From assembly GCA_965235115.1 (NCBI GenBank), contig OZ249436.1, forward strand, positions 13,704,001 through 13,764,000: a stretch of 60,000 nucleotides of DNA. Direction: 5' to 3'. The first letter of the stretch is position 1; each line of letters begins with the position of its first letter. Both the position numbers and the translations under genes were made by a program. The notes beneath the pieces were generated by a model. The model was not told the origin of the DNA. It worked only from the letters and a program-made list of their open reading frames with translations, and ran no database searches. Below are positions 3,619 through 59,802 of the stretch, one piece after another. This stretch comes from Laetmonice hystrix. Lineage: Eukaryota.

Positions 3619-3728
3619 GCATGGAATGACTACAATCTCCGATGGAATGAAACCGAGTATGGCGGAATCAAAAGTATACGGGTCCCACCGAAATTCCTTT
3701 GGAAACCCGACATTCTCATGTACAATAG
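3619..3728 (+). CDS. CHRNA7: nAChR alpha7-like exon (CHRNA7 exon 4 equivalent), [36 protein letters not shown]
   Basis: Pyrimidine tract and AG at 3617-3618, donor AG|gtatgt at 3729; 110 nt. Confidence 0.95.
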
Positions 3729-6700
3729 GTATGTCAGCATCAACCCACTACCACGGCGTCAAGGTCGTAACCATGACTACAGCTCCCATATTACCTCAAG
3801 GCTGAAGGAGAGGGCAATGAGAATTACTTACGTAGTTTACCATTATCATTAAAGTAGGTCATCAGGAATGAAGTAAATTAATGAGTGAGGGAAACCTGAT
3901 TTTCTTTCGTCGACATAAAATAAATATAAAAGAGGTGGAATTAATTGAGAGTGAAAAGAGGTATGTGCAGCAACGTTACATTATGTGCAGCAACGTTACA
4001 TTAGGAGCCATAATAATGTTAACGACAACAGTTTATTGATATACGGACATTAACCATCTCAAATTAAAGTACTCTGAGATCCACGAACCGTTTAATTGGC
4101 TGAGGAATGATAGCGTTGCCTGTTCTTTGTTTGCGGTTGATGTGTTTCCCATACCTATAAACACATAAACACTGTGTTTCAGCGCTGACGAGGATATCGA
4201 CAGCACCTTCCCGACCAATGTCGTCGTTTCATCGAACGGTGACTGTCTCTGGGTTCCCCCGGGACTCTTCCTCAGCACGTGTAAAATAGATATAACATGG
4301 TTCCCATTCGATGATCAGAAATGTAATATGAAATTTGGTTCATGGACATACGATGGTTCGGCCATAGACCTCCAGCTTCAAAACGAAGGAGGCGACATAT
4401 CCAGTTTCATACCCAACGGAGAGTGGCAACTAGTCGGTGAGACTTGGTTTTCTCCCTTAATCCATGGAGTCGTAACTATTCATTAAACGGTAAATACATG
4501 AGTCTTGAAACGGATTTTAATGTAGCACTTTTCAGTGAAAAATCTTCAGGTGTATACCTGAAGTAATCAAACCGTCCTTTATTTTATATGTATAAAATTT
4601 CCGACAACAGAATTTGTGAAAATGGCGCAAATACGGGAATATCTTTCAACGTAACATTTTTACCCTGCCCTTAGAAGATGATAGACTGTAAAGAAACAGT
4701 CACATAACTGTTAGTATAATGGTACGGCTTAGAGATGTAGACAGAGGGCGCATGCTCAGTAGATAAGTGCGCTGATTGGCCGATAAATGTAGAATATTAT
4801 ATTGATTCCTTGATTTAGGTCATTGATACACCTAGAGCCACCGTATATTGCCGAGATACAGACTAACATATTATTGCTTTAAGCTTAGCTTCACCAATAC
4901 TTCATCATGTCCTCCTATTTTGTGAACAATGCAATGTTGTCAGAACGTCCGAAGGCATCCTAAACTAGAGGTTTTAATCAGGGAAGTATGAGGTAGGATT
5001 ATATTCGTATGAGACAGATTAAAGTCCTGAGGAAAACAGTACTTTGAGGTAAGCGCCTTGTGTGGCCATACCCAGGAGGGCGGCTACTTCAGTCAAAAAA
5101 ACTCTTTCCAACTTGTACATGCCCATAGAAACAACCCAAACCTAACCAATACTGATGTACATTAACAAGGTATATAACCCACTAATGGTATTCTTTATTA
5201 TGATCAAGATGAAATCCTTCTATTTACATGTGGAAACTTTTACCCCTTTCGCTGCCTCTAATAACCAACAACCTACTCCCCATTCTGTATAGCGTCAACA
5301 CCTCAAATGGAGCTTTCTCGTGGCCACAATTTTTTTAAATGAAGAGAATTTACCACAAATGTAACGTGAACTGCTCGTCTTTTGGTTCTCCCTACGTTAC
5401 ATGGCGCTCGGCCTGCCAAACTTCCTTCACTTGGGCACAAGTTCGTTTCATGGAACATTCCTTGGCAATCTCGGTCAGGTGTTTGTACATTTTCACAAAT
5501 GCACATGTCAATAAAGAAAACGGTCTCCGACGTTCGTGACTGACCACCTTGCTATTGTCGTTTTCCGAACCCTTCAGTAATTGTCCTAACTTGGCGTTGT
5601 TGTGAGTACGCGAACGTTTTTTTTATACATTAACCGTTATCAAGAATGCATAACTAATCCAACGTGACCTTTATTACATTTGATAACTGACGTATTCAAT
5701 CATGCTCCATGGGACATGCCAATGTTGCAATTGCTCAAATTAGTCTAGACGATTTAAAAAAAGGTTACTCTGATTTGATTTCGGTTTTTAGCTTTTAGAG
5801 CTGTTTTTACTAAAGGTTCCTTTTGCATAATATTTATCTCCTCCGGTTGTTTGCTTGGTGCGGTTTACAATCGTCGGTTGAAAAAGTGTTATCGCTAACC
5901 TTTTCGTAACGTGATTGCTTGGAGATACTGTTTATCGCGTGGAAAAATTGCATATGTTTCTCCCAGATGAGTGTAGTTGTTTGCTTTGTAATGCTTCATT
6001 ATCCGATTCTTTGTTCTGGTTACGTTTATTTGCGAGGCTGAATCCTGACGTTAAAATCATAACTACTATACCAGCGTGGTTGTGGATGATTCCCCCACTG
6101 TCCTCCGTTCGGCTCCGTTTGGATCGCATGTGAGAAGCACGGGAGCAAGGCAGCATTGGGCATGTGCAACGGATAGTGGGTGGAAGTAATACGGTGTCCT
6201 ATCTTTGCAGATGTCCCTGCCAAGAGGAATGTTGTACAGTACGACTGTTGCCCAGAGCAGTATATCGATATTACATTTACCATCAAAATAAGGCGCAGAA
6301 AGCTCTACTACGTTTTTAACTTGGTTGTTCCCTGCCTCATGCTTTCCCTACTATCGCTATTGGTATTCGCGATGCCCCCGGATGCAGGAGAAAAAATTAC
6401 CTGTGGTAGGTTTCAAAACAGTTTTTATCTTTTGAAAAAGGCGACGCCATCGTTTGACTTGTGTCTCGGTTATCTTCTTTGTTTCTAGGTGTACCAGCTA
6501 AGCGCAGTGTTGTACAGTACGAATGCTGTCCCGAACAATATATAGATATTACGTTTACTATCCACATACGACGGAGAACGCTGTATTATGGATTTAACTT
6601 GATAATCCCCTGTGTTTTGATATCATCAATGGCACTGCTGACTTTCGTCCTCCCGCCTGACGCGGGGGAGAAGATATCACTAGGTAAGACAGCTCCAATG

Positions 6701-9700
6701 TGACGTCACAGTCATGGCGATGACGTTGTTTAACTGCACTGATCAGATCTGTGTCGTTGGTCGGAGACGCTATGACGTCATATATGTTATGTACTCACTG
6801 CATGTTTCGATATAGACAGGGTCCTGAGGCTAAAAAAATGGCCTAGATCTATAATATGTTGGATAATCATTAGGAAAGGCTTTCGGTAAATCAAAAATGG
6901 TTCCAAGCACTATAGATTTATAATACGAAAAAAAGAGGGAAAAGAAAAAGCTTTCAAACCATTATTTCTTTTTACTAAAAGAGTTTTTTTGTATTCGAAA
7001 CATCTGATCTTGATAAGTTTATATTATTATATTAGCATTGACATGGAACATTTCTTCTAACATCATGAAGATCTTTAACGTCTAATCCCTTTAGAGCATC
7101 TATTTCAGGTTGCGCGCGCAGCTAGCTCAGTACCATGGGAATCCTCATCGATATAATAATGTCTGGAAAAATACATGATATAAACATTATGATGTAAAAC
7201 AGCCAGATCTTGTTTAGAACTTACTACACCACGTTGATTTCTACTGCAGTAAAAATGTAAAAAAAATAACAGTGCTGTTAAAGATATTATGTAGACGGAA
7301 TCTCAAATGCCACTACAGTTGTGGACATTTTGTATTGAGCTATTGGGAACGGTTACAAAGTACTACAGCATGCTGACATAAACGATATCCCCGTCCACTA
7401 AGTATACTTTACACAGCGCTTAAAATCTGCTCCATAAGGATTCCCCCAGGAGGAATCTGTTGCGCATGCACCTATCGGATGTGGCAGTGATGTATGCATT
7501 ATTATGTGTACAATGTCCATTGTATTGTGTAACTCTTGTAGCATGATCTACCTCTGTCAGGCGCGAATGGTGACTGGTGTCACTTTTACCGAGTTTCTAT
7601 CCGAAACAACACGCGGCTGTTGAGAATTTGAACTACGTATCACTGGTATTTCTTTATAATAAAACTTCATGCAGTGGACAGCTAGCTCATCCGGGACCTA
7701 GCAGACGAAAAGGGGGTTAAGAGAAGCTAAAGGCAATAGAGAGTGGACAAGTTGACCATTCGACGCGCAGTACACTGACGAACAAATCTAGGCGCACAGT
7801 GTCCATGTGTTGTGCCCCGACTGTTGGCACATATTATTCGTGATCGCATATAGGTCCCCTATTGTATTATGGGTATATTAATGTAGTTTGTGCCAGCCCT
7901 TGTCACCTTCAAGTAGTCCACGTATGTATTGCGTGTAAACTGTACTTGATGGGATTATCCAATATGCTAGACTTTTACCCTCTTTTTTCACATTATTATC
8001 GTGTATTTATTGTACTACATGTGTAGTTCCCTGTTGTGTAGAATTCATAGTACATATACATGTATTTCTGTTTGGGGCTTACACATATATCATGCAGGTT
8101 TTCCAAGCAGTGGTTGGCTCAGCTGCACAGGGTCCAGTCTTTGAGATAAAATGGTCAAGTTCCAGTACAAAAGAGTTTAATGGTCACATACTGAAGCTTA
8201 AGGCCGTTCATTTAAATCAAACCGTTATTGGCAGTTTATTAAAATAATAATAATAATAATAATATTAATGTGAGATGACCACTTGACTGGCTGCCCCAAC
8301 CCTGTGGCCCAGCCGAGCTAGGAGCCTGTAACAATGGTATTATCTGTAAACCCTGAACCCGTTACCGCCGCCGAGTGTGAACAGAGCGGTTCACTGGGCC
8401 AAAGGTGGAGAGTGTTACCTCGACTGAACTGTGTAATGTTCTCTTCGTTCCAGGCGTCACTATTCTCCTGTCTCTCACTGTGTTTCTCCTGCTGGTAGCA
8501 GAAACAATGCCCCCAACCTCGGATGCGGTGCCACTCATAGGTGAGGGATGCCCCATCAAATTGATACCTCGTTCTAATGCACTATACGAGTAGCCCATGA
8601 GGACAGAGATGGACCTAATGGAATAAAAACTAACGTACTCAAACTGTTCTCTAGCTGAGCAGACTGCTCTACATGCGCCTCTTCTTCTGACTCCGTTTAC
8701 TAACAGTCCGTGCTCGTTTCTTGACAACAAATCATGTATTTTTTGTGTTTGATTTTCACGAGAATGTTACATAGCTAACAAATATTTTGTCTACAATTTT
8801 TTTGGAAGAGTGTGTTCACCCCAAAACCACATCCACCCCCTCACCCTGCCGGCAACCCCTTCCTAATACCAGCAACTCCTCCCCTAACACCCGCATGTTC
8901 GCAGTTAACCCCGGATCCGTTTGGGCGTTCTTCCTGTCCATCTACAGTACAACGTGAAGAACTTTCTAATTAACACACTTTTTGATGATATTATTATGGT
9001 TATCGTCACCCTGAATCAGCTGAACCGTACGGAGAAGTTTTGTGTGGTTGTTTTTTTGTAATAAAATGCCGCTTAGTGAGGCGGCCTCAGTCCTATTCGC
9101 AATCACCACGTGCATGGTAAAGTTCGGGAAGCGAAGTTTAACAGTGCTCAGCGCTACACGCGGATGAAAACAAAGAACGCTCAAAAGGAAGATGGCGCTG
9201 ACCTCCGACCGTCCCATTTGGTATGTATCCGCCAGTCATAAACAAATAGCATGGAGGATTTGTTTATGAAGCAAAATACATACTGACCGCATGGTCTCCC
9301 ATCGGCGTCTAATAACCCTAGTCTATAGTATGCTTTTGTGGCGTAATAATAGTAACAAAACATTTCGGAATCTTTTCGCATTAACCATTTAGAACATTAT
9401 GACCGGAAAAATCTAGGGTTGTCTTAGGGAAGGGAACGATACCCAGGGAAATAAAACAAACGGGTTGAGCATTAGGAATGTTGACAAGTGGATTAGATAA
9501 ACAGAGCCATTTATAACTATGGAAATATGAAAAGTATTGGTGGTGGTGGTGGTGTAAGACTTGGTTACCATTGCCATTTGTTACCATTGCCTTTGGTTAT
9601 CATTGCCTTTGGTTACCATTGCCATTGGTTACCATTGCCTTTGGTTATCATTACCTTTGGTTACCATTGCCATTGGTTACCATTGCCTTTGGTTACCATT

Positions 9701-12371
9701 GCCATTTGTTACCATTGCCTTTGGTTATCATTGCCTTTGGTTACCATTGCCATTGGTTACCATCGCCATTGGTTACCATTGCCTTTGGTTACCATTGCCT
9801 TTGGTTACCATTGCCATTGGTTACCATTGCCTTAGCTGTGCATGTAGGAATACATAGGACGGTACCAATAAGGAGGGGTTAACGTGAAGCCATACTTTCT
9901 TGTTTTTTGTTGTTTTTTTTTGCTCTCCATCCGCCTCATTCACTGGTGTTCCTAGGCTCGCACATAACGCTGAAAGGGTTGAAATTAAGCTTTTTTAACC
10001 AAATGCTTTTGACGCGTACTTGGCAGATGTTGTGCCCTTTGGCATATGGTGAAATATTCCTGTAACATGTGTGTCCTTCGCTTTCAAAAACATGAAGATG
10101 TGGTTTTGAACAGAGAACCCGTATCTCCACGAATGCTGTGGAGATCAAAATGCACATGGTGATAGTGACAAGGATTGGTGTTCATCTTGATATTCCGATG
10201 TAACCTACATTCATCTTCTAAAAATCAACGACGTACTTTTAATCCATGTCCAAGTTCATTTGTTTTCATGGCACCCTAGAAAGAGTTTGGTGGGGCAGGG
10301 GTATTGCTGGCTTCCAGAAGGGGAAGAACCAGTTCTTTCTCTCTCCAGTGTCTGTCCTTCAGGAGAAGTCCCCTTCTTTTCCAAGACTAATTGTGTAGCT
10401 CCGAGCGGGCGTCCCCTGTGTTGACCGGAAACGTCAACCTGTCCGTGACCTGGTCACATCCGGGTGTAGCGGTGGATGTAGCTAGGGGTCGAGCACACCA
10501 CGTCATTCACCGAAAATGGCGCAACCATTTCTTACTGCCGGTATACTTTATTATTTTGTTTCTACACGACGGTAGGTATGAGAGGCTACGCTGTAGAGAC
10601 AACCCCGCTGATTTCATGCTATAAAAATTAAACTGGAAGAAAAGTTCCGACTGAAACAAATTATTGTTTGACCACATTTGGTCCCGGAATGAAGTCATTG
10701 TGGCGTACCTATGGTTTATTTGTTTGACTTATTAATTTATTTACTAAAAATATCGAATGATTGGGTAATTTATATTAATGCCTTTTCAAGGTTCGTAGTA
10801 TATAATATTATTCGTTAACAGTGTTACATGCATACCATTATTCACACAGTAATATTTTAGTAGAATTAGGTTCCACTAACTCGGTACAGTCATTATATAC
10901 AATTATGGTGCTTCTCTGACGGTTAATTGTACTGATGCTTATTATAGGGTCGCTGTAATAATTCGTACAAATCTTCAATCTGCACGCAACATGAAACGCA
11001 AACATGTGTTATCAGTTCGGCAAGCCAAATTAAACCAAAATATGAAGCAACTCTGTATAAATATAATTATAGTCCCTACTGTAGGCTGGCATCCCATTGG
11101 ATGTGCCAAAAATAGACAATGATTGTTCAAAAACTGGGAAGCGCTGTCGCGTAACAGGATGTAAGGCTCAGTATGCTTGCGTTACTTGTTACCATGCTCC
11201 CACTTACTTTGTGTAAGATAATATCAGGACTTTACATAGTATCAGTCGCTCAGTCATTCAGGAAATACTATTATGTTCACCCTGTATGTGAAAGGGCATG
11301 ACCTGAACAATGGAATTGATATCTTAGGCAATAATAATTGCTTGATTGACAGCAAAGACAAAATCATCTCATAGCACTAATACAATATTAAAGGACAAAT
11401 CAGCTACTTTAATCATTTCTGGCTGTCGGCTTACGAGTTGTGCTGATTCCACTGCAGTGATCGTTCATTACACGTTATGTCTTACTTGTACACTGATTTC
11501 CTTAGCCTCTCCAACCTCTGTACAATGTTCTCACGGTAAGTGCAGAGTATGTGTCTCTTTACGGGCTTGATCAGAATGTTTATGTATTTGTTGTTGGATT
11601 AAACTGCGCCTTATATATTCTAGGTATGTATTTTGCGTGCATCATGTTGATGTGTTCGTTGTCAGTCGTCTTCACCGTACTCGTCCTCAATTATCATCAT
11701 CGAACTCCCGACACGCACGAGATGCCCCAGTGGGTGAGTAATGTGACCGCACCTTCCTTACATAATTACTCCAGTATTGGTGTTCATGTCTTGTCAAATT
11801 CTAAGTGATCAAACGTGAGTTTCTACTGCAGAGTAATTGTGGTGCTGCGGTGTAACTAGCCGGAGTTGCAGAGTAATTGTGGTGCTGTGGTGTAACTAGC
11901 CGGAGTTTTGCTGCACATTTCTAGGTGAAGAAAGGTGTGTGCGAGTGGTTAGCCTGGTTTCTACGAATGAAGAGGCCAGGACGAGATATTTCACGGAAGA
12001 AACTCATTCAAAATGCCAAGATGCGGGACCTTGAGCTACGGGAACGTTCCTCGAAGAGTTTGCTCGCAAATGTTCTCGACTTAGATGACGACTTCCGGGC
12101 TAACAGTACGCCTCATTACACAAACGTCAAAATCGGAAATGATGACAATTCGTTGCACATGTACCCTGGAAAAATCGAGTTACGAGAGATTCTCAAGGAA
12201 GTGCGTTTTTTAACAGAGAAGATGAAGAAAGACGAAGATTTTGATGAGCAATGTAATGACTGGAAATTTGCCGCAATGGTCATAGACCGACTATGTTTGT
12301 GGATGTTTACTATGTTTACCATAGTTTCCACATTCGCCATTTTGTTTTCCGCGCCGCACATCATGGCGTAA
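3619..12371 (+). CDS. CHRNA7: Nicotinic acetylcholine receptor alpha7-like subunit gene, 5'-partial, spliced: join(3619..3728,4183..4436,[6211..6405 or 6489..6683],8454..8540,11624..11733,11925..12371)
   Basis: Exons join in frame through GT-AG introns. They encode loop [10 protein letters not shown], Cys-loop [15 protein letters not shown], loop B WTYDG, loop C YxCC, GEK cation filter, M2 and M4. Exon sizes 110/195/87/110 match CHRNA7 exons 4/7/8/9 as I recall them. The symbol indicates family, not proven orthology. Confidence 0.95.
4183..4436 (+). CDS. CHRNA7: nAChR alpha7-like exon (CHRNA7 exons 5+6 equivalent) with Cys-loop and loop B
   Basis: tttcag| acceptor, G|gtgaga donor; translates [59 protein letters not shown]...NGEWQLV. 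Confidence 0.95.
6211..6405 (+). CDS. CHRNA7: nAChR alternative exon 7a (loop C, M1, M1-M2 linker)
   Basis: ctttgcag| acceptor, G|gtaggt donor, 195 nt, phase 1-1, no stops: [65 protein letters not shown]. Confidence 0.88.
6489..6683 (+). CDS. CHRNA7: nAChR alternative exon 7b (canonical alpha7-like loop C, M1, M1-M2 linker)
   Basis: tttctag| acceptor, G|gtaaga donor, 195 nt, phase 1-1: [65 protein letters not shown]. Confidence 0.95.
8454..8540 (+). CDS. CHRNA7: nAChR exon 8 (M2 and M2-M3 loop)
   Basis: ttccag| acceptor, G|gtgagg donor; 87 nt; [29 protein letters not shown]. Confidence 0.95.
9561..9832. repeat. Intronic minisatellite, 16-bp unit TTGGTTACCATTGCC(A/T), ~17 copies
   Basis: Direct periodicity; explains the repetitive three-frame ORFs here. 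Confidence 0.95.
11624..11733 (+). CDS. CHRNA7: nAChR exon 9 (M3 and start of intracellular loop)
   Basis: ttctag| acceptor, TGG|gtgagt donor; 110 nt; [37 protein letters not shown]. Confidence 0.95.
11827..11907. repeat. 40-bp tandem duplication in the last intron
   Basis: tgcagagtaattgtggtgctg(c/t)ggtgtaactagccggagt x2. Confidence 0.9.
11925..12371 (+). CDS. CHRNA7: nAChR terminal coding exon (intracellular loop, MA helix, M4, stop)
   Basis: ttctag| acceptor; [17 protein letters not shown] and [14 protein letters not shown] motifs; ends [11 protein letters not shown]. Confidence 0.95.
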
Positions 12372-33415: not shown

Positions 33416-35241
33416 GTTCTTGTATTCCGTCATTCCCGGCGTGACCGATTCCCTGGGACGTTCTTGTATTCCGTCATTCCCGGCGTGACCGATTCCCTGG
33501 GACGTTCTTGTATTCCGTCATTGCCGGCGTGACCGATTCTCTGGGACGTTCTTGTATTCCGTCATTGCCGGCGTGACCGATTCCCTGGGACGTTCTTGTA
33601 TTCCGTCATTGCCGGCGTGACCGATTCTCTGGGACGTTCTTGTATTCCGTCATTGCCGGCGTGACCGATTCCCTGGGACGTTCTTGTATTCCGTCATTGC
33701 CGGCGTGACCGATTCCCTGGGACGTTCTTGTATTCCGTCATTCCCGGCGTGACCGATTCCCTGGGACGTTCTTGTATTCCGTCATTCCCGGCTTGACCGA
33801 TTCCCTGGGACGTTCTTGTATTCCGTCATTCCCGGCGTGACCGATTCCCTGGGACGTTCTTGCATTCCGTCATTCCCGGCGTGACCGATTCCCTGGGACG
33901 TTCTTGTATTCCGTCATTGCCGGCGTGACCGATTGCCTGGGACGTTCTTGTATTCCGTCATTGCCGGCGTGACCGATTTCCTGGGACGTTCTTGTATTCC
34001 GTCATTGCCGGCGTGACCGATTCCCTGGGACGTTCTTGTATTCCGTCATTCCCGGCGTGACCGATTGCCGGGGACGTTCTTGTATTCCGTCATTCCCGGC
34101 GTGACCGATTGCCTGGGACGTTCTTGTATTCCGTCATTGCCGGCGTGACCGATTCCCTGGGACGTTCTTGTATTCCGTCATTCCCGGCGTGACCGATTCC
34201 CTGGGACGTTCTTGTATTCCGTCATTGCCGGCGTGACCGATTCCCTGGGACGTTCTTGTATTCCGTCATTGCCGGCGTGACCGATTCCCTGGGACGTTCT
34301 TGTATTCCGTCATTCCCGGCGTGACCGATTCCCTGGGACGTTCTTGTATTCCGTCATTCCCGCCGTGACCGATTGCCTGGGACGTTCTTGTATTCCGTCA
34401 TTGCCGGCGTGACCGATTGCCTGGGACGTTCTTGTATTCCGTCATTCCCGGCGTGACCGATTCCCTGGGACGTTCTTGTATTCCGTCATTGCCGGCGTGA
34501 CCGATTCCCTGGGACGTTCTTGTATTCCGTCATTGCCGGCGTGACCATTCCCTGGGACGTTCTTGTATTCCGTCATTCCCGGCGTGACCGATTCCCTGGG
34601 ACGTTCTTGTATTCCGTCATTGCCGGCGTGACCGATTGCCTGGGACGTTCTTGTATTCCGTCATTCCCGGCGTGACCGATTGCCTGGGACGTTCTTGCAT
34701 TCCGTCATTCCCGGCGTGACCGATTGCCTGGGACGTTCTTGTATTCCGTCATTGCCGGCGTGACCGATTGCCTGGGACGTTCTTGTATTCCGTCATTGCC
34801 GGCGTGACCGATTGCCTGGGACGGTCTTGTATTCCGTCATTCCCGGCGTGACCGATTGCCTGGGACGTTCTTGTATTCCGTCATTCCCGGCGTGACCATT
34901 CCCTGGGACGTTCTTGTATTCCGTCATTACCGGTGTGACCGATTCCCTGGGACGTTCTTGTATTCCGTCATTGCCGGCGTGACCGATTGCCTGGGACGTT
35001 CTTGTATTCCGTCATTCCCGGCGTGACCGATTCCCTGGGACGTTCTTGTATTCCGTCATTGCCGGCGTGACCATTCCCTGGGACGTTCTTGTATTCCGTC
35101 ATTACCGGTGTGACCGATTCCCTGGGACGTTCTTGTATTCCGTCATTGCCGGCGTGACCGATTGCCTGGGACGTTCTTGTATTCCGTCATTCCCGGCGTG
35201 ACCGATTCCCTGGGACGTTCTTGTATTCCGTCATTCCCGGC
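33416..35241. repeat. Minisatellite, 44-bp unit TTCTTGTATTCCGTCATT(C/G)CCGGCGTGACCGATT(C/G)CCTGGGACG, ~41 copies
   Basis: Strict 44-bp period with no unique spacers. Confidence 0.98.
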
Positions 35242-46863: not shown

Positions 46864-47949
46864 TGCCTGTCACTGCGGCTGTCAGTATCTGAACGCCCAT
46901 GTCCTGACCTCGTATCCCATTCCGACAACAGACCATAACAACTCAGTGTGCCTGTCACTGCGGCTATCAGTATCTGAACGCCCATGTCCGTGTATCCCGA
47001 CAACAGACCATAACAACTCAGTGTGCCTGTCACTGCGGCTATCAGTATCTGAACGCCCATGTCCGTGTATCCCATTCCGACAACAGACCATAACAACTCA
47101 GTGTGCCTGTCACTGCGGCTATCAGTATCTGAACGCCCATGTCCGTGTATCCCATTCCGACAACAGACCATAACAACTCAGTGTGCCTGTCACTGCGGCT
47201 ATCAGTATCTGAACGCCCATGTCCGTGTATCCCATTCCGACAACAGACCATAACAACTCAGTGTGCCTGTCACTGCGGCTATCAGTATCTGAACGCCCAT
47301 GTCCTCGTATCCCGACAACAGACCATAACAACTCAGTGTGCCTGTCACTGCGGCTATCAGTATCTGAACGCCCATGTCCTTGTATCCCATTCCGACAACA
47401 GACCATAACAACTCAGTGTGCCTGTCACTGCGGCTATCAGTATCTGAACGCCCATGTCCTCGTATCCCGACAACAGACCATAACAACTCAGTGTGCCTGT
47501 CACTGCGGCTATCAGTATCTGAACGACCATGTTCTTGTATCCCACAACAGACCATAACAACTCAGTGTGCCTGTCACTGCGGCTATCAGTATCTGAACGC
47601 CCATGTCCTTGTATCCCATTCCGACAACAGACCATAACAACTCAGTGTGCCTGTCACTGCGGCTATCAGTATCTGAACGCCCATGTCCTCGTATCCCATT
47701 CCGACAACAGACCAGAACAACTCAGTGTGCCTGTCACTGCGGCTATCAGTATCTGAACGACCATGTTCTTGTATCCCACAACAGACCATAACAACTCAGT
47801 GTGCCTGTCACTGCGGCTATTAGTATCTGAACGCCCATGTCCTCGTATCCCGACAACAGACCATAATAACTCAGTGTGCCTGTCACTGCGGCTATCAGTA
47901 TCTGAACGCCCATGTTCTTGTATCCCGACAACAGACCATAACAACTCAG
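46864..47949. repeat. Minisatellite, 73-80-bp unit, ~14 copies
   Basis: tgcctgtcactgcggctatcagtatctgaacgcccatgtcc..gtatccc(attcc)gacaacagaccataacaactcagtg. Confidence 0.97.
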
Positions 47950-50900
47950 CGTGATAATAACTCGTGCTGACACTGTATGCAACCAAGCTCATACAGACCT
48001 CTGTAATTTTCGTTGTATAACTCTATATCATATGTGGCAGTTATACATTTTTAGTGTTATCCAGCAGAATGAAGCCACAGCGACATTCATGATTTTGACA
48101 AGGTCTACTGCAGTGTAAATGAAACAAAAAAGGCGACAAATCATTATCTATACGTTTAATGATATACGTTGATAATACTTGTATAATAACCACGGGTTCA
48201 AAGATACATTTGGTCGTGTATCGTTTCATATCTTAAGGAATGATATATGAGAGAAATGACTGAACGACTGAGGAGAGACACTCTCAAGGGCAGGGACCCC
48301 GACAACCGCAGCCAAGGCCAGGAAATTCTGGACAAATCTTGTGTTGAATCCAATGAGATACGTTCGTGAGATGAGTTGATCATCCAAACCTAGCAAAGCT
48401 GGTGTTTATTTCTCATATTCCAACCCATGTGCTCATGATTAGTCATCTGGGACCGCGGGAATGCATCAAGAGACAGCAAACAAATCAGACTTTACGGTTC
48501 TCTCAAGCTGACAGACTTGAACCTCACAAATTTTGAATAATAAGCCATCATTATTGCCTTTTTAACATTCTGTACATAATCATCATGTAAAGGCATCAAA
48601 TCCTGACAGATTTAAACTAATGCCGTAACACATGGCCCTCACGTATAGCCTATACGCTGGACAAGTTGAGGTTCAGCTGTGGAATCTAAAGCTGTCATAA
48701 ATCAGGTGTATTGCAGTCGGTGCCTGTAATTCAGTGTAATGCCCCATATTGGACTACACGTATCAGCTTTCTTTCTAAATCAGTGTGATTTATTTACGCT
48801 TCTAGTTATGGAGTTCTAACTCTAGCACCAACTGCAAAAGTCTTAGACGGATTTCCTATATTTCAAATATGAAACGTACTTTTCTTCTTTAGCAACATGA
48901 TATTTAAATATGGCGCTCAAATAATGAAAACAAATGTAAGAAAATTACAAGTTCAGTCGCCCGAGCACGGCCCGTGGCGTTTACAAACCACCGCCATGGC
49001 AAACCGGCGTGGCTGCGTGGAGCGAAGGAAGGCAATATTACCGATGGCACACGCTGCTCCGTATTACAACTACATGTGTAGTTGTTTTGTTTCCAATTTA
49101 TTACGAGATAGCAGGTAAATCAAGAATGTTTAATATGAGAGGGGGTCGATTTTGTGGCTTTTAATTTGACGGGGCCGCGTTAACGAGTTCGTTCGAACGC
49201 AATTCGTCGCTGGGTCCTATCCAACACAGTTACCGGGAAATTAAAAGTCACTTGAACTGGACGTCATAATTGGAAACTCTACTTATTGTTTCACTCTCTT
49301 CACTGTCCCCCAGAGGAGGTAATAAGACCATTCGAGCAATTCCAATTTTCGGAAGAAAACGACATAACGCTAACCATTGAGAATACCAGAGAAGCCAAAT
49401 GTTTGTATTCGTAAAACCGATACTCTACTTGTCAGCGACCAGTTTCCAGTGAAATGGTAAATCCAAATATCGCGAAAGAAGCCAGAACTTGTGGCTGTTT
49501 TTTCCTGTCGTGGCTGCCGCCTTTGGTTATGAATGGGCCACCTCGTCCGATGGTCTGGTTGAAAACGTTATGGCTCCTGCCACCGGTCCGCTGGGCGGTC
49601 GGGCGGCGGCGGTAAGGCCGGTTAGGCTAGGATATTATGTTACGGAATCCGCTCGACCACACAGGCTGGCAGGGATCGGTCATTGAGTTGGTCAGCTCGA
49701 CTGGCTCTGACCAAACGTCTGCCGGCCCTTCGATTAGGAAATTCCCCATGAAGTTGGCGTAATCATCACGCTGCTGTCTCGGATCTTACACAAGGGTTGC
49801 GGTCCCGTCTATAGATAATCCGGGAGACCGTTCAGGGGCGGTGATAAAGTAGTCAGTAACGTCCCTTTCTTTTATAGGTCAGCGTCATCCACACGCAAAG
49901 ACCAGCATATTTACTGTCTTATTGCAGTGGATCAACCTGTATTGTCTGCTCGGAAGCAACAAGACAACCAACATGACTGTAGTGTTTGATCACCGACTGA
50001 ATGCACAATTGAGTATTTGACTGGAATCGACTTGACCTAGTCGTATGCCCCTGACGGTTGCTGCAGAAGAGTAATCGCGTTTGGTGGAGTAATTGATTGA
50101 TATCAGTCCACCCAAAGATTTCATTCCAAGCCCAGCGAGGCAGCTAGATCAATCGACCATGCTGCTACTGCCAGCCAGTGCTTAGGGAGTGGCAATCAGC
50201 AGCACTAACATTCATTCTATTCCAGCGTCTACTACTAGTTTACATGTGGGAAATAGTAGACTCGAAGAGATTTCATTGAGTACAAGTCTCATTGTCCTTG
50301 GGATGATATTCATGACTGCATTCTGCAGGAAAAGTGAGCATATGAAGGTCAACTACCCTTAAATGATCGGACAGTCTGCCGTACTGATGTGTCGTGAGCC
50401 TCTTTAGGCATACCTCACGACTACTCAGCCTTTGCCTTTAAAAGTTCACCGAATTGGGGGTTCAAATTTTAATTAAACATTATACTACCTACAGAAGTCC
50501 TAAGTCACTTACAACACCATCTTGAAGTCGTTATTGCTTGCATTTATTTGAGGAAACACGTGACGTAACAAGACTGGTATCTCTTCCGATATCCATATAT
50601 CCCATCTGTATTATACTCTGTTCGCCAACAACATATTGGTATCCAATAAGTTGTCACCGTTTCCACATGAATTAATAAAATCGGAGCAGCAGTCACCTTT
50701 GCGTATCAAAAGAGCTGCAACGATTACCATAATGCACAATGATTAGGCCGTCCTGTGCCTGCCCGAAGGCAAATATTGCGTGATTTTCAATGGAAGAGCC
50801 CCTCTATGCACGCTCACGTGCATCGTGTTATTGTGACTTTATTTTGAGTACGTATTTATTTGGTGGAACGGTTTTCTTCCCTCGGGCAATTTGCACTCTT

Positions 50901-51605: not shown

Positions 51606-52487
51606 CTAGACGTCGAATTCAATGCCAATCCAAACAATCTCAAGTGTCACTCGTAACGCCTCTCCGTCCAGTCCAGACAGCGTTTTCACGGTGGCTTCGC
51701 TCCTGCGAATTTTCAGCACGTGCTCCTCGCGCTCCAACTCAGAAACCCTCAACACTTGGTCTTTATCATCATAATAAATGTATATTTGTTCGAGAACCGC
51801 CCATAAAGCATGACAACGTTTGACAAGGCGTACCATGTCATCCGTTTGGTCACATTTATCGACTCTTGTAACAGGAGTTTCACGATCGACTGGACTGTCT
51901 AGTTTAGACGGCTTCGATTCAACACTCGTATCCGTTCCTGTTAGAGGCGCCTCAGCAACATGTTGGTCTGTGTTATTTTTATCTTCCACCAGGGAAACTA
52001 GGCCAGGGCGGCTCTGGCTAATGTTTTGGGGAGTTGATGTCTGCTCACCTGTAGGGGACTCTGTCTCATGTATTTTTTCCTCGAGAGGTTCACGATCACT
52101 AGAGGTAGGATCCGAGCTCGAATGCCGATTGTCGTCAGTGTCACTGTCTGAAAGGTCGGTATCGGACGAGTCAGTGGAAGATGATATCCACTGTTCGTCT
52201 GCGCTCTCCGCTATGGCCCGCTCCAGGGCAGCCATAGTGATGTCCTCCGGTGAGGAATACGTTGCCCCAGTACTCCATCTCCTACTGGGGTTCTTAGCAT
52301 CGCCACGGCCAGTCGGACGAATACGTGTGGTACACCGACAACGTGGACTGGCCACCGTACTCCACGTTAACTTCAGTGTAGTACTCGCTCCATCCCCGAA
52401 TATCTCATAGGTCAGGTGTTTGTGAGACTCGCAGTGCATTTTGCTAAGAAAAGCAGTCACAGCCGTAGGTAGTCCATAGAGTTCCAT
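51606..52487 (-). CDS. Intronless hypothetical protein, 293 aa (MELYGLPTAV...WIGIEFDV)
   Basis: Longest ORF in the window; ATG in strong Kozak context CCAACATGG; compact N-terminal segment, acidic Ser/Asp/Thr-rich linker, likely helical C-terminus. Confidence 0.6.
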   Translation of the reverse strand: MELYGLPTAVTAFLSKMHCESHKHLTYEIFGDGASTTLKLTWSTVASPRCRCTTRIRPTGRGDAKNPSRRWSTGATYSSPEDITMAALERAIAESADEQWISSSTDSSDTDLSDSDTDDNRHSSSDPTSSDREPLEEKIHETESPTGEQTSTPQNISQSRPGLVSLVEDKNNTDQHVAEAPLTGTDTSVESKPSKLDSPVDRETPVTRVDKCDQTDDMVRLVKRCHALWAVLEQIYIYYDDKDQVLRVSELEREEHVLKIRRSEATVKTLSGLDGEALRVTLEIVWIGIEFDV

Positions 52488-54219
52488 GTTGGAAATACTA
52501 CATTCAATAGCGCGTTCAATACTACATTCTGCGATGCTATCTCTGAGAAAAGTTACGTGAGGCACGTGCAGGGTTAGGCCATCGGTCTTACTCAGGTATT
52601 CCAGCTAGGCCTACCACCACGCCGAAATCCCGAAGGTCACTACTAGAAGTATGTTATCCCTTGGCTCACTCGTGGGCGCTTGCTACTACAGCAGCAGCAA
52701 AAAAATCCATTGCATGCAGGAGAAAGCCTCTGTCAATATGGGTGCCCAGCAGACAAGACCTCGCGACACGGTCTCATCCTATTTTTGGAGCGGGTTATTT
52801 TTTTTGGTCTTCAGTCACCGAGTCGGGGTAAATGTACATGGGCCACGCCTTAGGGGTCAACATAAACAATGGCAGACGTTTACACTCTGTCGAGTAACCT
52901 AGAACAGTTACTACCCTAGGCCATCTATTGCGTATCACCGCGGCAGTCACAGCTTGAACATTGTAATAATAGCTTTCTAATCTCTCCAGCCTCTTCTTGG
53001 CTCGTTGATCTCCAGAACGAATGGGTTCCTGGTCAGTTGGATAATAAAAAGTTCGATGTCAGGTCACCCTGAAGTATGATCAATGGGTATTTAGGTGACC
53101 GGAGAAATACAACTGTTACTGGTGCATCACTCAGGCAAGCAGCCCGACCGTACTCTATACCTAGGTCCTATCCATAGTGAACTTTGTGAAGAAATATTTC
53201 TACATAGCATGCAGGTCCATGCTTCATGTAGCTTATCCATCACTGATGATTTGGAAAGAAACTAAACATAGTCAAGATCCTCATAACACCTCTATACAGG
53301 CACCAGGGTAGTTCGGGAAACATAAATCAGGGTGTCATGTCATAATATGTAGACAAAATGCTGATTAATCCCCACATTCTAAGAGTGAGGTTACTGTGTG
53401 GTACCTGGAATTGTTGTACAAAAGATAAAATCCATTGACTCTGAATTCGACGGGAATCGTTTGAACTCCATACTCGTTATTTGGGAAAACATTTAGCTTT
53501 TTTCTTTTCATAAATAAATTATGTAGCAAACCCTTAATTGGGACAAGATTTTTTTAGCGGATTATAACGTTTGCTCAAGGTTATCTTTATACATTAGGCG
53601 AAACTTTGGGTGTTCGAAGACTCGGATTTGACGCTTTCAATGAGGGATTGGGCCACGCCATTCCACTTCTCTTGATGTTTCCTTGGTAGACATCAGCTCT
53701 CCCAGTAACTGATGCTTCCCTTCCATGTTTCAGCCCGGGTTTGGGGGCTACCTGACACCAACAACAGCTTGCTACCACTCCAACGGTTTCATTCGACCGA
53801 CCTGCATGCTTATTGTACCTAAATGTACGATCCACCTGTCTGTCAGGTGGCGAGCGCTATGCTAGTCCGCCACCTTCCGACCACAAACTGATCCATGGCA
53901 GCTCCATGGAGCTGGAGGAGATCTGATCCATTGCCTCGCCCATCGACAGCCGCCAGTCGCTGCAAGACCTTGCGTTGATGATAGGCTTGCATACCGAATT
54001 GGTTACGATCTCTCACCGTACATTTTCATCAGTTCGGTCTATGTTTTGGCCCGACGTGCCATTACTTTGTAATCATATCGACGTCAGTTGGGCTCGTATA
54101 AAGACAGATACACGTGTTCCAGTCGGGTTCCCTGGCCCTTGTAGATGAGAAATTGGCATACGGTACATCCCGTAAATGATAAATACAGGCCGTTTTACAG
54201 GGCAATCACAATGTGAATC

Positions 54220-58846: not shown

Positions 58847-59571
58847 ACTCTCCCACCTATGGCTGAGAGTCTCCCACCTATGGCTGAGTCTCACACCTAT
58901 GGTTGAGTCTCCCACCTATGGCTGAGAGTCTCCCACCTATGGCTGAGTCTCACACCTATGGCTGAGAGTCTCACACCTATGGCTGAGTCTCCCACCTATG
59001 GCTGAGAGTCTCCCACCTATGGGCGAGAGTCTCACACCTATGGTTGAGTCTCACACCTATGGCTGAGTCTCACACCTATGGCTGAGAGTCTCACACCTAT
59101 GGCTGAGTCTCACACCTATGGCTGAGAGTCTCACACCTATGGCTGAGTCTCCCACCTATGGCTGAGAGTCTCACACCTATGGCTGAGTCTCACACCTATG
59201 GTTGAGTCTCACACCTATGGCTGAGAGTCTCCCACCTATGGCTGAGTCTCACACCTATGGCTGAGAGTCTCACACCTATGGCTGAGTCTCCCACCTATGG
59301 CTGAGAGTCTCCCACCTATGGGCGAGAGTCTCACACCTATGGTTGAGTCTCACACCTATGGCTGAGTCTCACACCTATGGCTGAGAGTCTCACACCTATG
59401 GCTGAGTCTCACACCTATGGCTGAGAGTCTCACACCTATGGCTGAGTCTCCCACCTATGGCTGAGAGTCTCACACCTATGGGCGAGAGTCTCACACCTAT
59501 GGTTGAGTCTCACACCTATGGTTGAGTCTCACACCTATGGCTGAGAGTCTCACACCTATGGCTGAGAGTCT
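58847..59571. repeat. Minisatellite, mixed 19/21-bp units CTC(A/C)CACCTATGGCTGAG(AG)T, ~36 copies
   Basis: Direct periodicity. Confidence 0.97.
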
Positions 59572-59802
59572 CAATCGTGCATGCATGCTTTAGGTCTGCT
59601 CGCCATCAAAATGTTAAACTGATTTAATATGTATGCATTCCGTGACAGTGATGGCTGAAATTGATTGAAATCCCTGATCATCTTATTTAGGAAACTGTTG
59701 GTGGTGCTGCCGCTACTCATGATGACAACACGACAGTGTTTCTGTTGATCATGGTAAGATACTGTAGCAATGGCGTGAAGACATTGAATGCTCGCAGTGT
59801 TC

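What the first reader, a model, noticed from the sequence alone, without database searches (positions are those of the whole stretch)
6211..6683. Tandem duplicated exon 7 of an alpha7-type nAChR: candidate mutually exclusive exons swapping loop C, M1 and the pore filter as one module
Seen: two copies, each exactly 195 nt, phase 1-1, with canonical splice sites and no stops. They are diverged at many synonymous positions while keeping [14 protein letters not shown], the M1 proline and PPDAGEK, which suggests both are under purifying selection. Known: mutually exclusive exons in insect nAChRs involve alpha6 exons 3 and 8 and alpha4 exon 4; I do not know of a described pair for this exon. Inference: one gene yields two receptor isoforms differing in agonist-site loop C, gating interface and pore entrance.
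Basis: partly seen in the sequence, partly recalled or inferred. Interest (0 to 1): 0.85.

Follow-up and report, generated by a model that had tools for sequence, protein, structure and literature searches.

The report
Twin alternative exons, nicotinic receptor gene
A worm-like animal's alpha7-type acetylcholine receptor gene holds two old, well-kept versions of the exon for its first membrane helix, probably used one at a time to make two channel types; a ribbon-worm genome annotation shows this splice choice, but no paper I found describes it.

Summary
Exons 6211-6405 (7a) and 6489-6683 (7b) are each 195 nt, have AG/GT borders, share one phase, have no stops, and lie 83 nt apart. They are 66% identical in DNA and 72% in protein.

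Both are under strong purifying selection, between copies and between species (pN 0.05-0.16, synonymous sites saturated).

The same a/b pair occurs in four unnamed metagenome loci and in gene models of Capitella, Owenia and Macrostomum. RefSeq isoforms of the nemertean Lineus longissimus swap exactly this exon. Other unnamed animals have a gene with only the 7a type.

Mutually exclusive use is therefore well supported by comparison. It is unproven here, because no RNA run exists for this genome.

The loop C contact residues and the -1' glutamate are identical in both copies. The type-specific differences lie in pre-M1, M1 and M2 positions 2'/3'.

The gene also has a tandem exon 3 pair upstream of the window, as in insect alpha6, but a single M2 exon.

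I found no paper on this exon pair. The scan earlier noted analogous exon-7 pairs in arthropods; my tree places those as separate duplications.

Verdict: a new variant of a known kind, of moderate interest.

The parts
3619..3728 (+). Exon 4 of the alpha7-like nAChR gene (110 nt, AWNDYNLRW...MYN). Single copy.
   Evidence: tblastn with Lineus P0020 and Capitella P0003; borders read; no second copy.
4183..4436 (+). Fused exon 5/6 (254 nt) with the Cys-loop C-x13-C ([15 protein letters not shown]). Its donor at 4436 is the shared upstream junction for 7a and 7b.
   Evidence: Pfam Neur_chan_LBD, E 5.4e-26.
4824..4860 (+). Intronic arm complementary to the 7b acceptor region (6460-6496). A candidate docking-type RNA pairing; a lead only.
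   Evidence: Longest inverted repeat in 4437-8453: 37 nt, 73% complementary, as two ~10-bp helices. Duplex energy was reached by 1 of 40 shuffled targets.
6211..6405 (+). Exon 7a (195 nt): loop C, pre-M1, M1, the M1-M2 loop and M2 up to 3'. This is the divergent type ([19 protein letters not shown]).
   Evidence: Orthologous 7a-type exons in L009-L012, Capitella, Owenia, Macrostomum, Lineus X6/X3 and Watersipora. pN 0.11-0.16 against saturated pS.
6294..6326 (+). Core of exon 7a (codons 28-38, [11 protein letters not shown]) with conserved synonymous sites. A candidate RNA-level splicing control element.
   Evidence: 8 of 11 third bases are invariant in 4 pair-bearing species, against 3 of 29 elsewhere in the exon; permutation p 0.0056. 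7b shows no such cluster, p 0.36. In L009 and L012 an intronic 17-mer is complementary to this site.
6406..6488 (+). 83-nt spacer intron between 7a and 7b. It has a GTAGGT donor, a TTGAC branch-like site about 52 nt from the donor, and a pyrimidine tract.
   Evidence: Spacers in relatives are 76, 81, 106 and 177 nt.
6489..6683 (+). Exon 7b (195 nt): the canonical type ([30 protein letters not shown]).
   Evidence: Aligns without gaps to human alpha7 residues 178-241, E 4e-25. pN 0.05-0.09 between species.
8454..8540 (+). Exon 8 (87 nt, M2: [28 protein letters not shown]). Shared downstream junction. Single copy. This is the counterpart of insect alpha6 exon 8.
   Evidence: papers PMC6393475 and PMC2064938 (passages).
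11624..11733 (+). Exon 9 (110 nt, M3).
11925..12371 (+). Last exon (cytoplasmic loop, M4, stop TAA at 12369-12371).
   Evidence: Pfam Neur_chan_memb, E 4.3e-15.

Best explanation
The two 195-nt exons are alternative, mutually exclusive versions of the loop C/M1 exon of an alpha7-like nicotinic acetylcholine receptor subunit gene in a spiralian, probably annelid, genome. This gene is the spiralian counterpart of the insect alpha6/alpha7 group. A transcript joins exon 6 (donor 4436) to either 7a or 7b and then to the M2 exon (8454). That gives two subunits of equal length. With the exon 3a/3b pair found upstream, the gene could make four combinations.

The two forms keep the same agonist contacts in loop C and the same -1' glutamate. 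They differ at the junction residue (Asp or Gly), at two pre-M1 residues, at 12 M1 residues and at M2 2' (Thr/Ser) and 3' (Cys/Leu). The likely effect is therefore on gating or desensitisation, the inner pore mouth, transmembrane modulator or lipid sites, or assembly. Agonist recognition is unlikely to change.

Shown here: the anatomy; selection on both copies; recurrence of the pair in other spiralians; an annotated swap in Lineus; 7a-only genes elsewhere; and an RNA-level constraint inside 7a. Inferred: exclusivity in this species, the way it is enforced (a short spacer and/or RNA pairing) and the functional difference.
For: Anatomy and selection between copies. Gene map.

Tandem a/b pairs: L009, L010, L011 and L012, with intact AG/GT at all 8 extra exons, and the Capitella, Owenia and Macrostomum models.

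Selection between species: for 7a, window against 10 loci gives pN 0.11-0.16 and pS 0.68-1.01. For 7b, against 4 loci, pN 0.05-0.09 and pS 0.69-0.79.

Lineus RefSeq isoforms are all 480 aa. X6 differs from X1 at 24 residues, all within 207-270, which is a 7a-type exon. X3 carries the same swap.

Of the 303 proteins held, 4 models join a 7a-type exon directly to both exon 6 and the M2 exon: Lineus X6 and X3, Watersipora, and Macrostomum P0274.

Loci such as L001, L005, L007 and L008 run exon 6, then 7a-type, then the M2 exon, with no 7b. A 7a-type exon can therefore serve alone.

The type-specific signal lies in the M1 half. Between species a-a identity is 0.69, b-b 0.93 and a-b 0.56. In the loop C half a-a (0.62) equals a-b (0.63). 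The tree on the M1 half splits 16 7a-type rows from 20 7b-type rows with SH-aLRT 91.

Synonymous sites of 7a codons 28-38 are conserved (p 0.0056), while 7b shows no cluster. In L009 and L012 an intronic 17-mer is complementary to that site.

The same gene has an exon 3 pair. RefSeq isoforms of five other spiralian species in four genera (Tubulanus, two Haliotis, Aplysia, Biomphalaria), as well as Lineus, treat exon 3 as either-or.
Against: There is no RNA evidence for this species. One search listed 3 holders, none on record as RNA. One search shows DNA contigs only and no joints.

Co-inclusion (+195 nt) and double skipping both keep the reading frame, so nonsense-mediated decay would not enforce exclusivity.

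Automated models of Capitella, Owenia, Macrostomum (P0008, P0010, P0009) and 4 of 4 Panulirus isoforms contain both copies in series. I read these as annotation errors but cannot show it.

The 83-nt spacer, and the 177-nt one in L012, may be long enough to be spliced as an ordinary intron, so steric exclusion is unproven.

RNA pairing in the window is at best marginal. The 7b-acceptor duplex was reached by 1 of 40 shuffles, and the best 7a-core duplex by 24 of 40.

The Lineus isoforms are Gnomon models. That their variants need transcript support is recalled, not checked.
Confidence: 0.75

Rival explanations
1. 7a is an unused or nearly unused relic of an exon duplication (a pseudo-exon), and only 7b makes receptor.
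For: 7b is the more conserved copy: b-b identity is 0.93 in the M1 half and pN 0.05-0.09. It equals the canonical alpha7 sequence. Most full-length models and transcripts in the searches carry a 7b-type exon. No RNA is available here.
Against: 7a keeps an open frame, AG/GT borders and pN 0.11-0.16 across species whose synonymous sites are saturated. 7a-type exons are the only exon 7 in other animals' genes and in the Lineus X6/X3, Watersipora and Macrostomum P0274 models.
Confidence: 0.05
2. The exons are not exclusive. Either 7a is an optional cassette included together with 7b, or both are constitutively included, giving a subunit with a doubled loop C/M1 segment.
For: 195 nt is a multiple of 3, so co-inclusion stays in frame. 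The 83-nt spacer has consensus-like splice signals. Several database models contain both copies.
Against: A second M1 would invert the membrane topology of M2-M4 (inference from pentameric channel architecture). Lineus isoforms keep 480 aa with one exon each. Genes with 7a alone and models with 7b alone exist. The models that hold both copies are automated predictions.
Confidence: 0.07
3. About origin only: the pairs in different phyla arose by separate duplications, at least in flatworms, and the shared 7a features are convergent or an effect of long branches. They would then not stem from one duplication before the spiralian phyla split.
For: AU tests do not reject within-species clades. For Lineus a+b, p is 0.22. 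For the six Macrostomum rows the constrained tree is 2.95 lnL units better, p 0.62. On the M1 half alone p is 0.09. Both copies of the arthropod pairs fall inside the arthropod clade (support 94/95), so this exon has been duplicated more than once.
Against: 7a-type rows from annelid-like loci, Owenia, Lineus, Watersipora and Macrostomum lie on one side of a branch (72/83 on all columns; SH-aLRT 91 on the M1 half). They share RRRK and EK-x-[TS]-[CFM]. The groups were named after I had seen the sequences.
Confidence: 0.3

Closest known systems
Insect nAChR alpha6 mutually exclusive exons 3a/3b and 8a/8b/8c (Jin et al. 2007, PMC1919356; PMC6393475; PMC2064938; passages read. Grauso 2002 recalled only.)
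   Same: An alpha7-like subunit gene with tandem, same-length, homologous alternative exons. The exon 3 (loop D, 45 nt) pair is present in this gene too (L071:6120-6164 and 6268-6312).
   Different: Insect exon 8 encodes TM2. Here that exon (8454-8540) is single, and the duplicated exon is the one before it (loop C/M1). None of the papers I searched describes an alternative pair for this exon.
RefSeq isoforms X1-X4 and X6 of 'neuronal acetylcholine receptor subunit alpha-7-like' of Lineus longissimus (XP_064652926, XP_064652936, XP_064652944, XP_064652952, XP_064652968)
   Same: The same exon is swapped as a block (residues 207-270) between a 7b-type and a 7a-type version at constant length, alongside an exon 3 swap.
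   Different: A different phylum (Nemertea). These are annotation only, the genomic arrangement was not seen here, and Lineus also has an exon 4 alternative (X4) that this window lacks.
Arthropod alpha7-type genes with two copies of the loop C/M1 exon (earlier scan findings e1-7594537, e1-7495576, e1-7495578; Periplaneta, Anabrus and Panulirus models)
   Same: The same exon is duplicated in tandem in an alpha7-type gene.
   Different: Both arthropod copies group inside the arthropod clade (94/95) and lack the RRRK / EK-x-[TS]-[CFM] marks. They are therefore probably separate duplications.
Vertebrate CHRNA7 exon 7
   Same: 7b aligns without gaps to human alpha7 residues 178-241. The exon sizes 45, 110, 195, 87 and 110 nt match CHRNA7 exons 3, 4, 7, 8 and 9 as I recall them.
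   Different: In vertebrates the exon is single and constitutive (recalled).
RDL GABA receptor exons 3 and 6, and insect alpha4 exon 4/4' (mentioned in PMC2064938, passages)
   Same: Mutually exclusive exons in Cys-loop receptor genes that tune channel properties.
   Different: Other genes and other exons; those swaps alter ligand-binding loops, not M1.

Membership tests
Alpha-type, alpha7-like nicotinic acetylcholine receptor subunit (Cys-loop / pentameric ligand-gated channel) | Neur_chan_LBD and Neur_chan_memb domains | tested here: met
   Pfam: exon 5/6 matches PF02931, E 5.4e-26. The last exon matches PF02932, E 4.3e-15. 7b scores 31.8 bits against PF02932 (cut-off 28.1). 7a alone scores 25.5 bits, below the cut-off for this 64-aa piece.
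Alpha-type, alpha7-like nicotinic acetylcholine receptor subunit (Cys-loop / pentameric ligand-gated channel) | Cys-loop with 13 residues between the cysteines | tested here: met
   [15 protein letters not shown] in exon 4183-4436.
Alpha-type, alpha7-like nicotinic acetylcholine receptor subunit (Cys-loop / pentameric ligand-gated channel) | Vicinal Cys-Cys in loop C (alpha subunit) and a GEK motif before M2 (cation channel) | tested here: met
   Both are present in 7a and in 7b.
Alpha-type, alpha7-like nicotinic acetylcholine receptor subunit (Cys-loop / pentameric ligand-gated channel) | Closest solved relatives are alpha7 and not other subunits | tested here: met
   7b against the PDB: alpha7 chains E 4e-25 to 1e-24, next alpha3 at 1.6e-16. 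Named database relatives are 'alpha-7-like' or 'acr-16-like'.
Mutually exclusive (tandem-duplicated) exon pair | Adjacent homologous exons of equal length and phase with intact splice sites | tested here: met
   the same holds in 4 related loci.
Mutually exclusive (tandem-duplicated) exon pair | Both copies kept by purifying selection | tested here: met
   pN 0.05-0.16 with saturated pS.
Mutually exclusive (tandem-duplicated) exon pair | Mature transcripts contain exactly one of the two | not testable with these tools
   No RNA run for this genome, and DNA contigs only. Indirect support: Lineus isoform models carry one exon each. Several other automated models carry both.
Mutually exclusive (tandem-duplicated) exon pair | A mechanism that prevents joint inclusion (steric, RNA pairing, incompatible splice sites or NMD) | tested here: inconclusive
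   NMD is excluded because 195 is a multiple of 3. No U12-type signals. Spacers are short, 76-106 nt in 4 of 5 loci but 177 nt in L012. Window RNA pairing is marginal. In L009 and L012 an intronic complement to the 7a core is shared, and the 7a core has constrained synonymous sites.
Ortholog of the insect alpha6 gene architecture | Alternative exon 3 pair (loop D, 45 nt) | tested here: met
   L071:6120-6164 and 6268-6312, both with AG/GT borders, 103 nt apart.
Ortholog of the insect alpha6 gene architecture | Alternative exon 8 (TM2) copies | tested here: not met
   Only one M2 exon was found in the window at loose thresholds.
Ortholog of the insect alpha6 gene architecture | Whole-protein phylogeny placing it with alpha6 and not alpha5/alpha7 | not tested
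   Only exon-7 trees were built.

The most novel reading that the evidence does not exclude
The 7a/7b pair dates back at least to the common ancestor of annelids, nemerteans, bryozoans and flatworms. It acts as 'two subunits from one gene': the forms share one agonist site but have different M1 and inner-pore modules, and they may co-assemble or set distinct gating and modulator profiles. In one lineage (the L001-type loci) the switch was resolved into a gene that carries only 7a. The choice would be governed by an RNA element inside 7a (6294-6326) that pairs with intron 6.
Probability: 0.25. Interest if true: 0.7.

Novelty: new variant of a known kind. Interest (0 to 1): 0.5.

Why it matters
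Alternative exons of insect alpha6 (exons 3 and 8) are a textbook case of receptor diversification, and they matter for spinosad resistance.

This finding shows that spiralian alpha7-like genes diversify a different module. They hold the agonist contacts constant and swap M1 together with the first turn of M2. That is a natural chimera experiment on the part of the channel that couples binding to gating and that, in vertebrate alpha7, hosts transmembrane modulators (recalled).

It also flags a systematic annotation error, because several public gene models string both copies together. And it gives a possible case of an alternative-exon pair being replaced by a single-form gene in some lineages.

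Tried and rejected
RNA evidence. The look-up of sequencing runs listed no RNA holder: 3 runs of one sample, kind unknown, all holding intron words. Laid on 4100-8600 they behave as DNA contigs, with no joints.

Isoforms hidden in 90% clusters. I read members of 30 clusters. Only Lineus showed an exon-7 swap. The unnamed full-length transcripts I checked all carry 7b-type or other paralog exons.

Conserved intron blocks. Alignments of the 7a upstream flank, the spacer and the 7b downstream flank from 5 loci showed nothing conserved beyond the splice-site neighbourhoods (TGT[CA]TTTGCAG before 7a, GTAGGT after it).

Local folding of the spacer and of the pairing arms was no better than shuffles.

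Duplex scans put the best partner of the 7b acceptor region in the first few hundred nt of intron 6 in 3 of 3 loci. The z-scores (-3.1 to -3.8) are what a best-of-N gives, and the positional criterion is post hoc.

A window search for the L009/L012 intronic 17-mer found only exon 7a itself on the opposite strand.

The AU test for the Lineus pair on the M1 half could not run, because rows were identical and the script stopped.

I rejected an assembly artefact (66% identity) and a U12/U2 incompatibility (both introns are GT-AG with no U12-type donor).

The earlier-findings look-ups by place and by sequence gave nothing.
Full report
OBSERVATION

The window holds two tandem exons, 6211-6405 (7a) and 6489-6683 (7b). 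Each is 195 nt, follows AG and precedes GT. Each reads as 2 nt + 64 codons + 1 nt and has no stop.
- They are 129/195 identical in DNA and 46/64 in protein.
- By Nei-Gojobori, pN is 0.16 and pS 0.92. Synonymous sites are saturated while the protein is kept.
- The spacer between them is 83 nt.
- DNA contigs of three runs of one sample cross both exons with no difference inside them. The sample may be the assembly's own.
- At 66% identity the pair cannot be an assembly duplication.

THE GENE

tblastn with a Lineus protein and a Capitella protein maps an alpha7-like nicotinic receptor gene on the + strand:

| Exon | Coordinates | Length | Content |
|---|---|---|---|
| 4 | 3619-3728 | 110 nt | |
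| 5/6 fused | 4183-4436 | 254 nt | Cys-loop |
| 7a | 6211-6405 | 195 nt | loop C to start of M2 |
| 7b | 6489-6683 | 195 nt | loop C to start of M2 |
| 8 | 8454-8540 | 87 nt | M2 |
| 9 | 11624-11733 | 110 nt | M3 |
| last | 11925-12371 | | cytoplasmic loop, M4, stop |

- Pfam and the PDB agree with this reading. 7b aligns without a gap to human alpha7 residues 178-241 at E 4e-25, while the next subunit type (alpha3) reaches 1.6e-16.
- The window lies at C1:13704001-13764000 of a 627-Mb assembly in 35 contigs. That assembly has at least 70 matches to this exon, but no second 7a-type copy. The best matches after 7a itself are 7b at 73% and a C18 paralog at 69%.
- Upstream of the window I found exon 2 and two 45-nt copies of exon 3 (L071:6120-6164 and 6268-6312), 103 nt apart, both with AG/GT.
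- Exons 4, 8 and 9 are single.

COMPARATIVE EVIDENCE

The search with 7b returned proteins scoring far more than 64 residues can give, because they contain both copies in series. These are:
- read-through ORFs on unnamed contigs (P0001, P0002, P0005, P0006, P0012);
- gene models of Capitella teleta, Owenia fusiformis and Macrostomum lignano.

One metagenome scan gave 58 loci.
- Four of them (L009-L012) carry a 7a-type exon followed by a 7b-type exon. Both are 195 nt with AG/GT, and the spacers are 76, 81, 106 and 177 nt.
- Between the window and these loci synonymous sites are saturated (pS 0.68-1.0). pN is 0.11-0.16 for 7a and 0.05-0.09 for 7b.

Neither copy is therefore decaying.

A further group of loci (for example L001, L005, L007, L008) has exon 6, then a 7a-type exon, then the M2 exon, with no 7b between. 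A 7a-type exon can thus be the only exon 7 of a conserved gene.

ANNOTATED SWAP

Isoforms that differ by 18-24 residues are hidden inside 90% clusters, so I read cluster members and compared isoforms of equal length.
- In Lineus longissimus all five isoforms read have 480 residues.
- X6 differs from X1 at 24 positions, all within 207-270, where a 7b-type exon is replaced by a 7a-type one. X3 has the same swap plus the exon 3 swap. X4 swaps exon 4.
- In Tubulanus, two Haliotis species, Aplysia and Biomphalaria the equal-length isoforms differ only in exon 3.
- Among all 303 proteins held, four models join a 7a-type exon directly to both exon 6 and M2: Lineus X6 and X3, Watersipora, and Macrostomum P0274.
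- Against this, Capitella, Owenia, several Macrostomum models and 4 of 4 Panulirus isoforms string both copies together. I take these for prediction errors but cannot prove it.

WHAT DIFFERS

Of the 18 differing residues, 2 are in the loop C part (N/S, D/E), 2 in pre-M1 (K/H, K/T), 12 in M1 and 2 at M2 2' (T/S) and 3' (C/L). The split codon at the upstream junction adds Asp against Gly. The loop C Tyr, Cys-Cys, PEQY and the -1' Glu are identical.

| Comparison | Loop C half | M1 half |
|---|---|---|
| a-a between species | 0.62 | 0.69 |
| b-b between species | 0.71 | 0.93 |
| a-b between species | 0.63 | 0.56 |
| a-b within a species | 0.62-0.90 | 0.31-0.69 |

So across species the loop C half tracks the species and the M1 half tracks the exon type. 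Synonymous sites in the loop C half of the window's copies are diverged. The shared loop C is therefore kept by selection, not by recent gene conversion.

The swap changes the membrane module, not the agonist site. The prime numbering of M2 and the link of alpha7 M1 residues to modulator binding are from my own knowledge.

AGE

In a tree of 55 exon peptides the 18 spiralian 7a-type rows lie on one side of a branch, with support 72/83 and in 76% of bootstrap trees.
- Both copies of the arthropod pairs (Periplaneta, Anabrus, Panulirus) fall inside the arthropod clade (94/95). Those pairs look like separate duplications.
- On the M1 half alone (50 rows; 5 rows left out: the Lineus paralog and both copies of the two ctgP5/P6 contigs) 7a and 7b split with SH-aLRT 91.
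- AU tests do not reject per-species clades: Lineus p 0.22; Macrostomum p 0.62 on all columns and 0.09 on the M1 half.

A single duplication before annelids, nemerteans, bryozoans and flatworms parted is favoured but not established. The groups were named after I had seen the sequences.

MECHANISM OF CHOICE

- NMD cannot police the choice, because 195 is a multiple of 3.
- The splice sites are ordinary GT-AG.
- The spacer is by far the shortest intron of the gene apart from the 103-nt exon 3a/3b spacer. Branch-like sites lie 27-52 nt from the 7a donor in 4 of 5 loci by my reading. L012 has 177 nt, so steric exclusion cannot be general.
- Inside 7a, codons 28-38 (6294-6326) keep 8 of 11 third bases invariant in the four pair-bearing species, against 3 of 29 elsewhere (permutation p 0.0056). 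7b shows no such cluster, p 0.36.
- In L009 and L012 an identical intronic 17-mer upstream is complementary to exactly this site.
- In the window only an 11-bp match exists (5308-5318 with 6297-6307), and it is no better than shuffles (24 of 40).
- The longest inverted repeat of the region pairs 4824-4860 with the 7b acceptor (6460-6496). Its duplex energy is reached by 1 of 40 shuffles.

I conclude that an RNA-level signal in 7a is likely. The pairing model is a lead only.

LITERATURE

Passages in PMC6393475 and PMC2064938 state that insect alpha6 has alternative exons 3 and 8 and that exon 8 covers TM2. PMC1919356 (passages) dates those pairs to before the insect orders diverged. A tick alpha6 paper (PMC13578988, passages) reports only exon 3 variants. 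PMC6896357 on lophotrochozoan nAChRs does not discuss splicing; its single match for 'splic' is in the reference list.

Six searches that combined mutually exclusive exons or exon duplication with nicotinic receptor, alpha7, loop C/TM1 or spiralian taxa listed no paper on an alternative loop C/M1 exon. This covers only the held library.

EARLIER SCAN NOTES

The scan had already noted tandem loop C/M1 exons in arthropod alpha7-type genes. I confirmed that such pairs exist in public arthropod models. I found them to be probably independent of the spiralian pair.

VERDICT

This is a real, conserved, very probably mutually exclusive exon pair. It is a new variant of the known alternative-exon theme of alpha6/alpha7-like receptor genes, it is visible in one RefSeq annotation, and I found no paper describing it. 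Exclusivity in this species and the functional difference remain to be shown with RNA and electrophysiology.

Noticed in passing
L071:6120-6164 and L071:6268-6312 (3.7-3.9 kb upstream of the window start): The same gene has two 45-nt copies of exon 3 (loop D; DEKNQILTSNIWLNM and DEKNQIINTNIWLNL), 103 nt apart. This is the counterpart of insect alpha6 exons 3a/3b. The spacer holds three CACGTG palindromes.
   Followed up: partly
L001-L008, L013-L023, L036-L038, L051: Unnamed metagenome contigs carry an orthologous-looking gene with only the 7a-type exon between exon 6 and the M2 exon. In many of them this exon is itself split by a new intron inside M1, at varying places. This recalls earlier scan note e1-7495578.
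   Followed up: partly
L009:4460-4476 and L012:346-362: An identical intronic 17-mer sits upstream of 7a in two species whose introns otherwise do not align. It is complementary to the conserved core of exon 7a. L009 has a second, weaker copy at 4586-4597.
   Followed up: partly
window 6698-6711 and 6770-6783: Two TGACGTCA palindromes (CRE-like) lie just downstream of the 7b donor and form a 14-nt inverted pair. TGACGTCA also occurs upstream of 7a in L011 and L012.
   Followed up: no
window 9561-9833; 33416-35241; 46864-47953; 58849-59573: Tandem repeats: a 16-nt unit x17 inside the M2-M3 intron, which produces long spurious ORFs; a 44-nt satellite x41.6; an 80-nt unit x13; and a 40-nt unit x18.
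   Followed up: no
G000 genome, e.g. C1:55.53-55.65 Mb, C10:25.66-25.69 Mb, C12:10.6-12.9 Mb: At least 70 matches to the loop C/M1 exon across the assembly, several in local clusters. The nAChR family is expanded, as reported for lophotrochozoans.
   Followed up: no
window 51606-52604 (- strand): The longest open frame in the rest of the window (332 aa, acidic and Ser-rich) has no Pfam match.
   Followed up: partly
Public models P0003 (Capitella), P0007 (Owenia), P0008/P0010 (Macrostomum), P0217 and its 3 cluster mates (Panulirus): These database gene models include both copies of the exon in series, and Capitella's also includes both exon 3 copies. They are probably mis-annotated mutually exclusive exons.
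   Followed up: partly
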